Source: a virus. Taken from it: 17,922 nucleotides of DNA. The stretch lies in UHGV virus genome UHGV-0157346, one strand, 5' to 3'. Both the position numbers and the translations under genes were made by a program. Positions within the stretch are counted from its first letter, which is position 1. Each line of letters starts with the position of its first letter. Of this stretch, positions 9,239-11,581 are shown in pieces. Below the pieces are notes generated by a model, which saw nothing but the letters and a program-made list of their open reading frames with translations, had not been told where the DNA came from and did not search any database.

Positions 9239-9269
9239 GGCTCTTAAAAATTAAGCCCTGAAGAAGGGC
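9239..9269 (+). promoter_or_regulatory. nutL (boxA and boxB)
   Basis: GCTCTTAAAAATTAAGCCCTGAAGAAGGGC, which is the lambda nutL boxA plus boxB hairpin, upstream of N. Confidence 0.88.
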
Positions 9270-9441
9270 AGCATTCAAAGCAGAAGGCTTTGGGGTGTGG
9301 TGAAGGGTTCATGGATGGGAATATGTCGCACGTAAAGCGGCGAGGCCTGCGGAACTATTGCCGAATTGAAGTCGGCCGAAGCAGGTCGAAATGGGTCTCC
9401 CACCTACCACACCACCAAAGCTAACTGACAGGAGAATCCAG

Positions 9442-9774
9442 ATGGATGCACAAACACGCCGCCGCGAACGTCGCGCAGAGAAACAGGCTCAATGGAAAGC
9501 AGCAAATCCCCTGTTGGTTGGGGTAAGCGCAAAACCAGTTAACCGCCCTACTCTCTCGCTGAATCGCAAACCGAAATCACGAGTAGAAAGCGCACTGAAT
9601 CCGATAGACCTTACGGTGCTGGCTGAATACCACGAACAGATTGAAAGCAACCTGCAACGTATTGAGCGCAAGAATCAGCGCACATGGTACAGCAAGCCAC
9701 GCAGTGAAATGGGTGTGACTTGTGTTGGTCGCCAGAAGCAACGCGGAAAATCAATTCCAGCTTATTACGATTGA
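9442..9774 (+). CDS. N: Antitermination protein N, lambda type
   Basis: MDAQTRRRERRAEKQAQWKAANPLLVGVSAKPVN... with the arginine-rich motif; ribosome-binding site GGAG upstream of ATG 9442; matches lambda N through most of its length. Confidence 0.92.
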   Translation: MDAQTRRRERRAEKQAQWKAANPLLVGVSAKPVNRPTLSLNRKPKSRVESALNPIDLTVLAEYHEQIESNLQRIERKNQRTWYSKPRSEMGVTCVGRQKQRGKSIPAYYD

Positions 9775-9782
9775 GGTGATCC

Positions 9783-9920
9783 ATGCTCAAGAAAGTCAAA
9801 CGCCGACTTTACAAAGAAGGTAGATATTCATGCCATTTGCCAAAATGCGACACAGCAAAATGGAGTGTCGACGATTGGTGTAACTGGATAGATAGATACG
9901 GAACTTGGTGGGATAAATAA
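9783..9920 (+). CDS. Hypothetical 45-aa Cys/His/Trp-rich peptide
   Basis: GAGGTGA ribosome-binding site then ATG 9783; MLKKVKRRLYKEGRYSCHLPKCDTAKWSVDDWCNWIDRYGTWWDK; below the track's size cutoff. Confidence 0.4.
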   Translation: MLKKVKRRLYKEGRYSCHLPKCDTAKWSVDDWCNWIDRYGTWWDK

Positions 9921-9974
9921 CAGGTAACTTAAGCGGATTTATTTTCGCAGCAAACCACTTATTTGAGGTGAGAT

Positions 9975-10424
9975 ATGGAAGAACAAGCAAACAAGATTCT
10001 CGTAGAACTACTGCAAAAAGCCAGTAATGGAATAGACGCGGCTGTTTCATTTAGCCAGGCACAGACTCCTGATGTTGTTCATCAGTTGCTGCTATGGAAT
10101 ATGGTTGACAGTCTGATTAAAACATTAATGGCCATTCTAACAATCCCACTGGTTTTCTGGTTTATGAAGAAGCAGTGCCAAAGAGTTGAGACAGGTAAAA
10201 TCGGTGATGAAGGATATTCATGGGAGAAAGGAAATCCCAAATACAGGCCGACAATGGTTTGGGATAGCAAAGGTGATATTAATCTTCTTATCATGCCATT
10301 GGTTGTAGTTTTGACTCTGTGGGGGATTTTTATTATTGGTGTAGTAACCAATATGACTTGGTTAAAAATTTGGCTGGCCCCAAAGCTTTACCTTATCGAA
10401 TATGCAGCATCATTGGTTAAGTAA
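9975..10424 (+). CDS. Hypothetical membrane protein (149 aa, two predicted transmembrane helices)
   Basis: Hydrophobic segments LIKTLMAILTIPLVFWFM and LLIMPLVVVLTLWGIFIIGVVT; AT-rich; preceded by a 19-bp leader repeated before the next gene; occupies the lambda sieB/ral position. Confidence 0.65.
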   Translation: MEEQANKILVELLQKASNGIDAAVSFSQAQTPDVVHQLLLWNMVDSLIKTLMAILTIPLVFWFMKKQCQRVETGKIGDEGYSWEKGNPKYRPTMVWDSKGDINLLIMPLVVVLTLWGIFIIGVVTNMTWLKIWLAPKLYLIEYAASLVK

Positions 10425-10429
10425 TTTCA

Positions 10430-10456
10430 GGCCGCATAGTCGGCCTTTATTTTTTG
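10430..10456 (+). terminator. Intrinsic terminator after the membrane-protein gene
   Basis: ggccg-catagt-cggcc followed by tttatttttt. Confidence 0.6.
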
Positions 10457-10502
10457 CATAAACAACAGAATAAACACTGCACTGAATTATTTGAGGTGAG
10501 AT

Positions 10503-10973
10503 ATGACAAAATCATGGAGCGTACCTTTTCCTGAATCAGAAACTGAACATGATGGAATGCCTGTTTTCTGGAGATTCCAGGCGACAGTTGAAGAAGATGG
10601 AATCAAAATATTCGCACTTCAATATATAGCTTTTCATCAGACAGAGCATTATGCATGGTTGGTTCCTGCGCATTGGATTGTTAATTTTAAACCAGCACCA
10701 AATCAGTGGTTACAGGAATGGAAACAAAAGAGAAATAGATATGCAATTAAGAAAGTAGCAAAAAATGCAGAAAGATCTTTTGCATTCCCAACGAAGAAAC
10801 TTGCCATTGAGAGTTTATTGCGCCGGAAGAAATACCATTTAATGAGAATTAAACAAGATTTGGCTGTTGTATCAACTCTTGTTGATGGGATGAAGAATAT
10901 TGATACATCAACACCAGATATTGAATATAACTTTGGACACAACCAAGAAACAGAAAACTGGGTATTTTATTAG
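10503..10973 (+). CDS. Hypothetical protein (156 aa), second gene of the AT-rich cassette
   Basis: ORF with the same ttatttgaggtgagatATG leader as the preceding gene; no family recognised. Confidence 0.6.
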   Translation: MTKSWSVPFPESETEHDGMPVFWRFQATVEEDGIKIFALQYIAFHQTEHYAWLVPAHWIVNFKPAPNQWLQEWKQKRNRYAIKKVAKNAERSFAFPTKKLAIESLLRRKKYHLMRIKQDLAVVSTLVDGMKNIDTSTPDIEYNFGHNQETENWVFY

Positions 10974-11077
10974 TACAAATAAGCACTGTGTATTCATTCC
11001 AACGAGTGAATACACGGAGCAATGTCGCTCGTAACTAAACAGGAGCCGACTTGTTCTGATTATTGGAAATCTTCTTT

Positions 11078-11102
11078 GCCCTCCAGTGTGAGGGCCTTTT
11101 TA
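11078..11102 (+). terminator. Intrinsic terminator after the AT-rich cassette
   Basis: gccctc-cagtgt-gagggc followed by cttttta. Confidence 0.65.
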
Positions 11103-11163
11103 TATGCATACCAATAACGCTTCACTCGAGGCGTTTTCGTTATGTATAAATAAGGAGCACACC

Positions 11164-11289
11164 ATGCAATATGCCATTGCAGGGTGGCCTGTTGCTGGCT
11201 GCCCTTCCGAATCTTTACTTGAACGAATCACCCGTAAATTACGTGACGGATGGAAAAGAGTTGAGGTCTTATTATGCGCAATGAAATAG
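11164..11289 (+). CDS. cIII: cIII-like FtsH inhibitor with a divergent, shortened C-terminus
   Basis: AAGGAG ribosome-binding site; MQYAIAGWPVAGCPSESLLERITRKLRDGWKR matches lambda CIII residues 1-32 as recalled, then diverges (VEVLLCAMK) and stops at 41 aa. Confidence 0.8.
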   Translation: MQYAIAGWPVAGCPSESLLERITRKLRDGWKRVEVLLCAMK

Positions 11290-11426
11290 CCATAAATCAT
11301 CAGATGCTTCGTGCTGCACAAAACAAAGCAGTAATAGCCAGATTTATTGGTGATTCCAAAATGTGGTTTGAAGCAAATAAAGCGATGAAATCAGCTATCA
11401 ACCTTCCGTGGTATCGCAGGAAATGA
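11274..11426 (+). CDS. kil: Kil-like host-killing (cell-division inhibitor) peptide
   Basis: 50 aa; the segment IARFIGDSKMWFEANKAMKSAI resembles lambda Kil (IATFIGDEKMFREAVDAYKK) as recalled; overlaps the cIII 3' end as kil does in lambda. Confidence 0.6.
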   Translation: MRNEIAINHQMLRAAQNKAVIARFIGDSKMWFEANKAMKSAINLPWYRRK

Positions 11427-11581
11427 GTTTTACAGATAACTGGTCAGACGAAGAATTCATTCGTCAGATGAAAGATTTAATCGGTAACGAAGGAGATATT
11501 CATGTCACTTGCAACCACAGTGAAGGAGAGCAAGTTACAGAGACGCATGTACACGCAGAAAGCTCTCTGGTATCGCCATAA
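11423..11581 (+). CDS. Hypothetical 52-aa acidic peptide
   Basis: ATG overlaps the kil TGA (ATGA); weak ribosome-binding site; overlaps the next ORF in another frame. Confidence 0.3.
   Translation: MSFTDNWSDEEFIRQMKDLIGNEGDIHVTCNHSEGEQVTETHVHAESSLVSP

What the first reader, a model, noticed from the sequence alone, without database searches (positions are those of the whole stretch)
9959..11102. AT-rich two-gene cassette between N and cIII, each gene with an identical 19-bp leader and its own terminator
Two ORFs (9975-10424, a 149-aa protein with two predicted transmembrane helices; 10503-10973, 156 aa) are visibly more AT-rich than the flanking lambda-like DNA. Each is preceded by the same 19-bp string ttatttgaggtgagatATG (9959-9977 and 10487-10505) and followed by its own hairpin plus T-run terminator. 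They occupy the position where lambda has sieB and ral, genes that act against other phages or host restriction. Neither protein resembles a family I recognise. The duplicated leader suggests a shared translational control or a modular insertion.
Basis: partly seen in the sequence, partly recalled or inferred. Interest (0 to 1): 0.72.

Follow-up and report, generated by a model that had tools for sequence, protein, structure and literature searches.

The report
Two swappable accessory genes after N
The two AT-rich genes are real but unrelated, independently shuffled accessory genes in a well-known variable spot of lambda-like phages. Their identical 19-bp leader is the generic ribosome-binding junction of that spot, not a special control element, and what either protein does is still unknown.

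Summary
The 19-mer is exact at 9959-9977 and 10487-10505. Both ORFs are real and conserved, and they are AT-rich (GC 0.40 and 0.36, against 0.47 for the window).

The "two-gene cassette" reading does not hold. ORF1 (Sf6 gp34 family, PHROG 3054) occupies exactly the slot that holds orf28-ral in lambda. ORF2 (HK97 gp45 = 933W L0079 = H-19B, PHROG 1636) is a 499-bp insertion into the lambda post-ral spacer, flanked by CACTG repeats.

- **Leader:** it is the generic 5' boundary of this slot, a strong Shine-Dalgarno region homologous to the lambda orf28 leader. In IMG/VR contigs the exact 19-mer precedes at least 17 unrelated ORFs.
- **Terminators:** the ORF1 terminator and spacer is the generic 3' boundary and follows at least 12 unrelated cargo genes, including Ral. 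ORF2's "own" terminator is backbone lambda tL2a, inside the Sf6 "bsq4 boundary sequence".
- **Co-occurrence:** the two genes are adjacent in only 3 of 5426 complete E. coli genomes. ORF1 alone is in 130 and ORF2 alone in 593.

Neither protein matches Pfam, NCBIfam, PADLOC or PDB. Both sit downstream of nutL on the pL strand, so they are most likely early lytic genes. I infer that ORF1 is a two-TM envelope-acting protein and ORF2 a basic cytoplasmic counter-defence or host-takeover protein. Both functions are untested.

The parts
9255..9269 (+). nutL boxB (GCCCTGAAGAAGGGC), preceded by a boxA-like GCTCTTAAAAATTAA. It marks the region as the N-antiterminated pL operon.
   Evidence: Exact string located. 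It was flagged as a minus-strand hairpin. N is 98.6% identical to lambda N. That this string is the lambda nutL boxB sequence is from my own knowledge.
9391..9774 (+). Antiterminator N
   Evidence: Pfam N36, E 2.2e-26. 98.6% DNA identity to lambda 35394-35104.
9783..9920 (+). 45-aa DUF5484 ORF. Its Shine-Dalgarno sequence (ATTGAGGTGATCCATG, 9770-9785) contains the N stop codon. Its leader is related to the 19-mer.
   Evidence: Pfam DUF5484, E 1.2e-11. phrog_1871. Sequence.
9947..9977 (+). 5' slot boundary, copy 1: GCAGCAAACCAC plus the 19-mer TTATTTGAGGTGAGATATG (9959-9977). The Shine-Dalgarno sequence GAGGTGA lies at -10 to -4.
   Evidence: Identical to the sequence in front of L0079 in 933W. 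Homologous to the lambda orf28 leader plus its first three codons. The exact 19-mer precedes at least 17 unrelated ORFs in 120 IMG/VR hits.
9975..10424 (+). ORF1: 149 aa, two TM segments (about 43-61 and 106-124), with conserved N- and C-terminal helices. Sf6 gp34 / PHROG 3054 family.
   Evidence: phrog_3054, E 1e-63. 1526 protein clusters, none named. Phage homologues. Model and hydropathy.
10429..10455 (+). Intrinsic-terminator-like hairpin AGGCCGcatagtCGGCCT plus T-run. This is the start of the generic 3' slot boundary.
   Evidence: dG -10.5 kcal/mol, z -2.8. The same hairpin and T-run follows ORF2, a 207-aa Nmad5 protein, DUF7167 and others elsewhere.
10456..10484 (+). Post-ral spacer GCATAAACAACAGAATAAACACTGCACTG (backbone)
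   Evidence: 93.9% identical to lambda 34087-34040, which lies directly after the ral stop codon.
10485..10983 (+). 499-bp ORF2 insertion unit: leader AATTATTTGAGGTGAGAT, ORF2, and tail TACAAATAAG. It is flanked by CACTG at 10480-10484 and 10984-10988, and by the imperfect repeat AATAARCACTG.
   Evidence: Lambda, Sf6, Gally, HF4s and EH2086 read ...aataaacactgcactg|tgtattcattcc... without the unit. Coordinates.
10487..10505 (+). 19-mer leader, copy 2
   Evidence: The same spacer-leader-ORF2 junction occurs in phage phi367, downstream of ral.
10503..10973 (+). ORF2: 156 aa, pI 9.05, with a basic core at residues 61-125. HK97 gp45 / 933W L0079 / H-19B family, PHROG 1636.
   Evidence: phrog_1636, E 5e-112. 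tblastn. Alignment. Wider family. Charge distribution.
10983..11101 (+). Backbone "boundary sequence" (Sf6 bsq4). It contains a 14-bp perfect hairpin (10986-11017, no U-run) and the lambda tL2a terminator hairpin (11078-11095, plus T-run).
   Evidence: 98.3% identical to Sf6 L007 3478-3596, which is annotated bsq4 and tL2A. 97.6% identical to lambda 34045-33923. Folds.
11164..11289 (+). cIII-like gene with its thermoregulator RNA (11151-11209). Lambda ea10 is absent; the junction is at 11105/11106.
   Evidence: Pfam Lambda_CIII. Rfam RF01804, 88.5 bits. Lambda coordinates.

Best explanation
The region is a stretch of the variable accessory-gene array that lambdoid phages carry between N and cIII in the early-left (pL) operon. 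It holds two unrelated cargo genes in adjacent slots, and they are acquired independently.

**Slot structure.** Each slot has two conserved boundaries.
- The 5' boundary is an unstructured translation-initiation region, (GCAGCAAACCAC)TTATTTGAGGTGAGAT-ATG, a relative of the lambda orf28-ral leader.
- The 3' boundary is a terminator hairpin, a T-run and the spacer GGCATAAACAACAGA...

The same boundaries flank many different genes in different phages. Homologous recombination at the boundaries, or microhomology-mediated insertion in the case of the ORF2 unit, swaps or stacks cargo.

**This window.** ORF1 has replaced orf28-ral. The ORF2 unit, with its own copy of the leader, sits in the post-ral spacer upstream of the bsq4/tL2a backbone. 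That is why the 19-mer appears twice.

**Expression (inferred).** Both genes are transcribed from pL early in infection or induction. ORF1 lies before the first intrinsic terminator. ORF2 lies after it and therefore needs N antitermination.

**Function (inferred, low confidence).** ORF1 is an inner-membrane protein whose conserved termini probably face the periplasm, and it probably acts at the envelope (superinfection exclusion or envelope-level takeover). ORF2 is a basic cytoplasmic early protein, probably a counter-defence or host-takeover factor like its slot-mates Ral and Nmad5.
For: **Shown**
- Window-to-lambda homology blocks place ORF1 exactly between the orf28 leader (lambda 34381-34346) and the post-ral spacer (34087-34040). 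They place the ORF2 unit at lambda 34040/34041. tL2a and cIII are retained and ea10 is missing.
- The exact 19-mer precedes at least 17 unrelated ORFs in 120 IMG/VR hits: 51 ORF2-type, 31 orf28-ral, then 83-aa, 107-aa and other ORFs.
- The 3' boundary follows at least 12 unrelated cargo genes, including Ral, ORF1, ORF2, Nmad5 and DUF7167. After it comes either bsq4 or another Shine-Dalgarno sequence and ORF.
- ORF2 occurs in three different contexts: 933W/HK97, phi367 and this window, and Bas106.
- ORF1 occurs behind at least 7 leader variants. It is followed by bsq4 in 48 loci, by another cassette in 21 and by ORF2 in 4 of 73.
- The Sf6 GenBank record annotates the homologous downstream sequence as "boundary sequence bsq4" and "tL2A".
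[quoted passage not shown] 2001, as cited in PMC3029335).
- nutL boxB and a lambda-type N lie upstream on the same strand.
- No + strand terminator lies between N and ORF1, and no promoter-like site lies near either gene.
- The leaders are unstructured.

**Basis for the function inference**
- ORF1 has two TM segments, and K/R residues are enriched in the inter-TM loop (7.4, against 2.2 in the N-terminal and 3.2 in the C-terminal segment).
- ORF1 homologues lie in early regions of virulent phages: phi92, an N4-like phage and Vibrio phages.
- ORF2 has a basic core.
- ORF2 is the first gene after N, or the first gene of an early operon, in HK97, 933W, Vibrio phage PvVp04 and Salmonella phage NX263.
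- The only annotated alternative cargo genes are Ral and Nmad5.
Against: - Both structure models are only moderate (pLDDT 73 and 66).
- The ORF1 topology rests on the positive-inside rule alone.
- The promoter scan is crude and did not flag pL itself, so lysogenic expression is not excluded.
- Rho-dependent termination between N and ORF1 cannot be predicted.
- The origin of the ORF2 unit is ambiguous. The left junction of the 19-mer differs between contexts (CCAC versus TGAA), so it could have arisen by microhomology-mediated insertion rather than boundary recombination.
- "Guilt by location" rests on only two annotated slot-mates.
Confidence: 0.72

Rival explanations
1. A linked two-gene system, such as a toxin-antitoxin or a two-component defence or counter-defence pair. 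The identical leaders would set a coordinated translation ratio.
For: - The genes are adjacent, on the same strand, with identical 19-bp leaders.
- Both are AT-rich.
- One is a membrane protein and the other a soluble basic protein.
Against: - The genes are adjacent in only 3 of 5426 complete E. coli genomes, while ORF1 is in 130 and ORF2 in 593.
- They are adjacent in 4 of 73 ORF1 loci.
- HK97, 933W and H-19B carry ORF2 alone. Sf6, Gally and HF4s carry ORF1 alone.
- A terminator separates the two genes.
- The leader is shared with many unrelated genes.
Confidence: 0.04
2. Prophage-encoded defence genes expressed in the lysogen. They would be functional analogues of lambda sieB/rex or HK97 gp15, protecting the host from other phages.
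For: - The position is near where lambda has sieB.
- The composition is AT-rich and moron-like.
- ORF1 is a small membrane protein, as many superinfection-exclusion proteins are.
- ORF1 has a hypervariable core with conserved ends.
Against: - No sigma-70-like promoter lies on the + strand near either gene (a crude scan).
- Both genes lie downstream of nutL/N inside the repressed pL operon.
- There are no PADLOC hits and no similarity to SieB.
- Both families also occur in virulent phages, which have no lysogenic state.
- An early-expressed exclusion function, like T4 Imm, remains compatible with the main explanation.
Confidence: 0.13
3. The 19-mer is a specific cis-regulatory element, such as a binding site for a translational repressor, an sRNA or an RNase. 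It would be conserved for regulation rather than as a recombination joint.
For: - Sequence conservation is very high in front of many different genes.
- Conservation extends upstream to GCAGCAAACCAC.
- Selection on more than a Shine-Dalgarno sequence is conceivable.
Against: - No significant RNA structure is predicted (z -0.96 and -0.12), and there is no Rfam hit.
- Functional variants exist in front of the same genes: GAGGTGATAT, TATTTAAGGTGATAT and the N-coupled TTATTACGATTGAGGTGAGAT.
- The conserved core is simply an extended Shine-Dalgarno sequence (GAGGTGA) at optimal spacing.
Confidence: 0.1

Closest known systems
Lambdoid mosaic "boundary sequences" (Clark et al. 2001, HK620; Casjens et al. 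2004, Sf6, bsq1-4)
   Same: Short conserved intergenic sequences are shared by phages that carry different genes on either side, and are proposed as sites of homologous recombination. Window 10983-11101 is 98.3% identical to the annotated Sf6 bsq4/tL2A. The 5' leader and the 3' terminator-spacer behave the same way.
   Different: Here the 5' boundary is the translation-initiation region itself and reaches 3 codons into lambda orf28. It is present twice in one genome because two slots are filled. I could not read the original papers to check whether this particular leader was listed.
Morons (Juhala et al. 2000; Hendrix et al., HK97/HK022)
   Same: ORF2 is an extra gene inserted between sequences that are adjacent in related phages (lambda 34041/34040). 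It has an atypical, AT-rich composition.
   Different: No promoter of its own is detected, and ORF2 has no terminator of its own. Expression appears to depend on pL and N rather than on autonomous expression from the prophage.
Lambda orf28-ral (anti-restriction) cassette
   Same: ORF1 sits in exactly the same slot, with a homologous leader, the same first codons (ATG GAA GAA) and a homologous T-run and spacer downstream.
   Different: There is no sequence similarity to Ral (PF11058 is hit only by the alternative cargo). ORF1 is a two-TM membrane protein.
Lambda/P22 SieB and small membrane superinfection-exclusion proteins (T4 Imm, HK97 gp15)
   Same: ORF1 is a small phage-encoded membrane protein in the early region near N.
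   Different: There are no Pfam SieB or Imm hits. BLASTP against lambda SieB gives E = 28. Lambda sieB is annotated on the opposite strand. No exclusion phenotype is known for this family.
HK97 gp45 / 933W L0079 / H-19B ORF (PHROG 1636) and Sf6 gp34 (PHROG 3054)
   Same: ORF2 is 98.7-100% identical to these proteins. ORF1 is 49% identical to Sf6 gp34, and near-identical at both ends.
   Different: None of these proteins has a described function. Literature searches for L0079, HK97 gp45 and Sf6 gp34 found nothing relevant.

Membership tests
Boundary-sequence-flanked mosaic module (lambdoid phages) | The same short intergenic sequence is found next to different, unrelated genes in different phages. 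| tested here: met
   The 5' 19-mer precedes at least 17 unrelated ORFs. The 3' terminator-spacer follows at least 12 unrelated ORFs. The downstream block equals Sf6 bsq4.
Boundary-sequence-flanked mosaic module (lambdoid phages) | The same cargo gene is found in different flanking contexts. | tested here: met
   ORF2 occurs in three contexts. ORF1 occurs behind at least 7 leader variants and in front of three kinds of downstream sequence.
Moron | Inserted between sequences that are adjacent in a related phage. | tested here: met
   The ORF2 unit (10485-10983) interrupts lambda 34041/34040. Sf6, Gally and HF4s lack it.
Moron | Nucleotide composition differs from the neighbouring DNA. | tested here: met
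   GC is 0.359 for ORF2 and 0.396 for ORF1, against 0.474 for the window.
Moron | Own promoter, allowing expression from the repressed prophage. | tested here: inconclusive
   No + strand promoter-like site was found in 8900-11500. The scan is a simple consensus match and did not report pL either.
Moron | Own factor-independent terminator. | tested here: inconclusive
   ORF1 has one (10429-10446 plus T-run). ORF2 does not: its nearest hairpin lacks a T-run, and the next terminator is backbone tL2a.
SieB superinfection exclusion (Pfam PF14163) | Sequence similarity to lambda or P22 SieB. | tested here: not met
   No Pfam hit at E <= 0.1 or at E <= 1 for 9 family members. BLASTP against lambda SieB gives E = 28 for ORF1 and 0.21 for ORF2.
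Ral anti-restriction (Pfam PF11058) | Sequence similarity to Ral. | tested here: not met
   Neither ORF gives a Pfam hit. True Ral at the same slot in other phages scores E = 6e-47.
Two-gene operonic system (TA or defence pair) | The two genes co-occur consistently. | tested here: not met
   Adjacent in 3 of 5426 genomes, against 130 and 593 for the genes singly. Adjacent in 4 of 73 ORF1 loci.
Known anti-phage defence systems (PADLOC-DB 2.0) | HMM match to a defence protein. | tested here: not met
   ORF1 has no hit. ORF2 has only a 13-bit match to Cas1_II (E 0.0097), which I take as noise.
Class II holin / lysis membrane protein | Small two-TM protein encoded in the lysis cassette, with a holin family match. 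| tested here: not met
   Two TM segments are present. However, the gene lies in the early-left operon next to N, and there is no holin Pfam hit.
PHROG 3054 (ORF1) and PHROG 1636 (ORF2) | Full-length HMM match. | tested here: met
   E = 1e-63 over 1-149 and E = 5.4e-112 over 1-156. Both families are annotated "unknown function".

The most novel reading that the evidence does not exclude
At least one of the two proteins founds a new functional class.
- **ORF1:** this family has more than 1500 protein clusters. It occurs in temperate lambdoid and P22-like phages and in virulent phi92-like, N4-like and Vibrio phages. Its termini are near-invariant and probably periplasmic, and its TM-loop-TM core is hypervariable. 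It would be a new, widespread early-expressed envelope protein that blocks superinfection or disarms a membrane-based abortive-infection system.
- **ORF2:** this protein is conserved as the first gene after N in HK97, H-19B, 933W and most Stx phages. It would be a new counter-defence protein.
Probability: 0.25. Interest if true: 0.6.

Novelty: new member of a known kind. Interest (0 to 1): 0.3.

Why it matters
The architecture matters mostly as a clean, quantified example of how lambdoid phages shuffle early accessory genes. A conserved ribosome-binding leader and a terminator-spacer act as universal joints for dozens of unrelated cargo genes.

The practical value lies in the cargo.
- ORF2 is in about 11% of complete E. 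coli genomes. It is the first gene after N in the medically important Stx phages 933W and H-19B and in the model phage HK97, yet it has no known function.
- ORF1 belongs to a very large membrane-protein family found in both temperate and virulent phages.

Because Ral shares the slot, these are reasonable candidates for screens of counter-defence or superinfection-exclusion genes. Nothing here is surprising to a lambdoid-phage specialist.

Tried and rejected
- **Family libraries:** Pfam, NCBIfam and PADLOC gave nothing for either protein. Pfam on 64 ORF2 relatives and on 9 diverse ORF1 relatives gave only scattered noise.
- **PDB sequence profiles:** nothing for either family.
- **Structure, ORF1:** AF2 model at pLDDT 66. 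BFVD gave no hit.
- **AFDB50 Foldseek:** the library was not available.
- **Exhaustive profile search for ORF2:** it widened the family to PHROGs 13631, 25384 and 28215, all of unknown function.
- **Literature:** searches for L0079/933W, HK97 gp45 and Sf6 gp34 found nothing relevant. The supplements of the accessory-gene screen PMC12373910 do not contain either protein sequence.
- **Conserved partner of ORF1 in distant phages:** rejected. The downstream neighbours in Sf6, an N4-like phage and phi92 are unrelated: an unknown protein, a YadA-anchor/collagen protein and an AAA ATPase.
- **Relatedness of ORF1 and ORF2:** rejected (hhalign probability 0.3%).
- **Regulatory RNA structure in the leader:** rejected. 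Rfam finds only the cIII thermoregulator.
Full report

Yes, for the most part.
- The string TTATTTGAGGTGAGATATG occurs exactly twice in the window, at 9959-9977 and 10487-10505. No other copy appears even with three mismatches allowed, and none appeared in 200 shuffles.
- Each copy ends in the ATG of an ORF: 9975-10424 (149 aa) and 10503-10973 (156 aa).
- GC is 0.396 for ORF1 and 0.359 for ORF2, against 0.474 for the window and 0.51 for N. These are the 5th and 0.6th percentiles of 450-nt windows.
- On the + strand the context is: a cI-like repressor (8044-8676), nutL boxB (9255-9269), N (9391-9774), a 45-aa DUF5484 ORF (9783-9920), ORF1, ORF2, cIII and its thermoregulator RNA, then kil.
- ORF1 has two hydrophobic segments.
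- A GC-rich hairpin plus T-run follows ORF1 at 10429-10446.

One statement fails. ORF2 does not have its own terminator. The hairpin directly after it (10986-11017) has no T-run. The hairpin plus T-run at 11078-11095 lies 105 nt downstream and belongs to the backbone (see section 2).

**2. Anatomy relative to lambda and other phages**

BLAST of the window against lambda 33000-35700 gives five blocks.

| Window | Lambda | Identity | What it is |
|---|---|---|---|
| 9408-9698 | 35394-35104 | 98.6% | N |
| 9950-9986 | 34381-34346 | 86.5% | leader and first three codons (ATG GAA GAA) of orf28, the small ORF in front of ral |
| 10436-10484 | 34087-34040 | 93.9% | T-run and spacer directly after the ral stop codon |
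| 10983-11105 | 34045-33923 | 97.6% | spacer continuing to tL2a |
| 11106-11256 | 33522-33371 | 99.3% | cIII region |

Three things follow.
- ORF1 replaces orf28-ral exactly, between a conserved leader and a conserved terminator-spacer.
- ORF2 is a 499-bp unit inserted into the lambda sequence ...AATAAACACTGCACTG|TGTATTCATTCC... The unit (10485-10983) consists of an 18-bp leader, the ORF and a 10-bp tail. It is flanked by CACTG at 10480-10484 and 10984-10988, and by the imperfect repeat AATAARCACTG.
- Lambda ea10 is missing.

The block downstream of ORF2 is 98.3% identical to the stretch of Sf6 that its GenBank record annotates as "bsq4; boundary sequence" and "tL2A". Phages that carry ORF1 but not ORF2 (Sf6, Gally, HF4s, Stx2_EH2086) run straight from the spacer into this block.

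**3. What the 19-mer and the terminators are**

In 933W the 31-bp sequence GCAGCAAACCACTTATTTGAGGTGAGATATG stands in front of L0079, which is ORF2, directly after N. In this window the same 31 bp stands in front of ORF1.

The ORFs that follow the 19-mer fall into at least 17 unrelated groups:
- the ORF2 family (51 hits);
- lambda-type orf28, followed by ral (31 hits);
- an 83-aa protein (13 hits);
- a 107-aa protein (8 hits);
- many rarer ORFs of 52 to 147 aa.

*The 3' boundary.* A scan for the T-run and spacer (CCTTTATTTTTGGCATAAACAACAGA) also hit its limit.
- It follows at least 12 unrelated cargo genes: Ral (PF11058), ORF1, ORF2, a 207-aa Nmad5 protein (PF18757), a DUF7167 protein and others.
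- After it comes either the bsq4 backbone or another Shine-Dalgarno sequence and ORF.
- Several unrelated cargo genes even share their last three codons (K-A-A) and stop codon. These form the 5' arm and loop of the ral-type terminator hairpin.

*Variation among ORF1 loci.* In 73 ORF1 loci from IMG/VR, ORF1 sits behind at least seven leader variants.
- Sixteen loci differ from the window's leader by one base.
- Nine loci have the lambda form.
- Four loci are coupled to the N stop codon.
- Two loci have the "spacer" form seen in front of ORF2 here.
- ORF1 is followed by bsq4 in 48 loci, by another cassette in 21 and by ORF2 in 4.
- In two of the four tandem loci the two leaders differ by a base.

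The leader folds no better than shuffled sequence (z -0.96 and -0.12). Its core, GAGGTGA at -10 to -4, is an extended Shine-Dalgarno sequence at good spacing. The DUF5484 ORF uses a related leader, TTATTACGATTGAGGTGA, in which the N stop codon is embedded.

I conclude that the leader and the terminators are generic slot boundaries of an accessory-gene array. They are not features specific to these two genes. [quoted passage not shown] 2001, as cited in PMC3029335).

**4. Are the two genes a unit?**

No.
- In 5426 complete E. coli genomes, ORF1 is present in 130 (at 80% coverage or more), ORF2 in 593, and the tandem in 3.
- HK97, 933W and H-19B carry only ORF2. Sf6, Gally and HF4s carry only ORF1.
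- The two proteins are unrelated.

**5. The proteins**

*ORF1.*
- It matches PHROG 3054 (E 1e-63, unknown function). A profile search finds 1526 protein clusters, none with a name or Pfam domain.
- Homologues occur in lambdoid and P22-like phages: Sf6 gp34, HK639, CUS-3 and HK633.
- Homologues also occur in virulent phages: phi92 gp220, N4-like FSL SP-058, many Vibrio phages, and Pseudomonas and Rheinheimera phages. They always lie in early regions and have no conserved neighbour.
- The N-terminal 41 and C-terminal about 22 residues are nearly invariant. The TM1-loop-TM2 core is variable.
- Against Sf6 gene 34, DNA identity is 96% over codons 1-41 and 88% over codons 129-149. There is no detectable DNA similarity in between, so the gene is itself mosaic.
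- K/R counts are 7.4 in the loop, 2.2 in the N-terminal tail and 3.2 in the C-terminal tail. By the positive-inside rule this puts the loop in the cytoplasm and both conserved termini outside. This is an inference only.
- The AF2 model is weak (pLDDT 66) and finds nothing in BFVD.

*ORF2.*
- It matches PHROG 1636 (E 5e-112). It is 100% identical to the H-19B ORF, 99.4% to the 933W, BP-4795 and Min27 proteins, and 98.7% to HK97 gp45.
- An exhaustive profile search adds about 60 distant relatives of 130-155 aa. All belong to PHROGs of unknown function.
- The protein has pI 9.05. Its core (residues 61-125) is strongly basic, with 17 K/R against 4 D/E, and both ends are acidic.
- The AF2 model (pLDDT 73) shows a three-stranded sheet, short helices, a fourth strand and a long C-terminal helix.
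- Where context is visible, ORF2 is the first gene after N, or the first gene of an early operon.

**6. How it most likely works**

*Shown.* Both genes lie on the pL strand, downstream of a lambda-type nutL and N. They have strong Shine-Dalgarno sequences, and the consensus scan finds no promoter near them.

*Inferred.*
- Both are early lytic genes.
- ORF1 lies before the first intrinsic terminator, so it would be co-transcribed with N.
- ORF2 lies beyond that terminator, so it would need N antitermination, like lambda ral and cIII.

*Function, from position and physical properties only.*
- The only annotated alternative cargo genes at this slot are Ral (anti-restriction) and Nmad5 (associated with nucleotide modification). 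This points weakly to a counter-defence theme.
- ORF2 would fit that theme as a basic cytoplasmic protein.
- ORF1 is an early membrane protein with conserved, probably periplasmic termini and a hypervariable core, and it also occurs in virulent phages. It fits an envelope-level role such as superinfection exclusion.

I put about 0.85 on the architecture and about 0.25-0.3 on each functional guess.

**7. Comparison with what is known, and novelty**

- The architecture is a member of a known kind: boundary-sequence-flanked cargo in the lambdoid early-left operon. The ORF2 unit is also moron-like in being an AT-rich insertion, but it lacks a detectable promoter and has no terminator of its own.
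- Membership in SieB, Ral, holin, PADLOC defence families or a two-gene system was tested and not met.
- Both proteins are already in databases as hypothetical proteins of well-known phages. What is unusual here is only the rare stacking of both in one genome, which creates the duplicated leader.
- Interest is modest. It is a tidy illustration of cargo shuffling, plus two widespread candidates for functional screens.

Noticed in passing
window 9770-9920: A 45-aa DUF5484 ORF (phrog_1871) lies between N and ORF1. It resembles Sf6 gene 36, which is annotated as similar to T4 orf55.4. Its Shine-Dalgarno sequence, ATTGAGGTGATCCATG, contains the N stop codon, which suggests translational coupling to N. 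Its leader (TTATTACGATTGAGGTGA) looks like a longer relative of the 19-mer.
   Followed up: partly
window 10986-11017: A perfect 14-bp hairpin (dG -20.4 kcal/mol, z -7.2) without a U-run lies directly downstream of ORF2, inside the bsq4 block. It is conserved in lambda (about 34043-34012) and in Sf6. It might be an RNase III site, an mRNA stabiliser or a recombination feature. I found no annotation for it.
   Followed up: partly
window 9975-10424 versus L007 (Sf6) 3001-3423: ORF1 is internally mosaic. Both ends are near-identical to Sf6 gene 34 at the DNA level (96% and 88%). The TM1-loop-TM2 middle shows no DNA similarity, as if a specificity core were swapped within a constant frame.
   Followed up: partly
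window 11151-11209: There is a full-length Rfam match to the lambda cIII thermoregulator (RF01804, 88.5 bits). The cIII-like ORF probably starts at 11164, not at 11104. Its C-terminus diverges from lambda after 11256.
   Followed up: partly
window 11105/11106: Relative to lambda, the ea10 gene (lambda about 33922-33523) is cleanly absent. tL2a is joined directly to the cIII leader.
   Followed up: partly
window 8601-8999: A 132-aa ORF (phrog_2651, unknown function; the match starts at residue 39) overlaps the 3' end of the cI-like repressor gene. It sits where lambda has rexAB. It may be a lysogen-expressed gene and is therefore a better a priori candidate for a prophage defence function than ORF1 or ORF2.
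   Followed up: no
L049 and other IMG/VR loci (alternative cargo at the same slot): A 207-aa Nmad5 protein (PF18757, E 7e-72) and a family of 78-118-aa proteins sharing the motif LIAAAPELLEAL...AI(S/A)KA(L/I)GEE recur as cassettes in the same array. Several unrelated cargo genes share their last codons, K-A-A plus the stop codon, with the terminator hairpin.
   Followed up: partly
L009 3427-4413 (Salmonella phage FSL SP-058): In this N4-like virulent phage, the ORF1 homologue is followed by a protein with collagen repeats and a YadA-like outer-membrane anchor. It is an early-region gene for an envelope protein.
   Followed up: no
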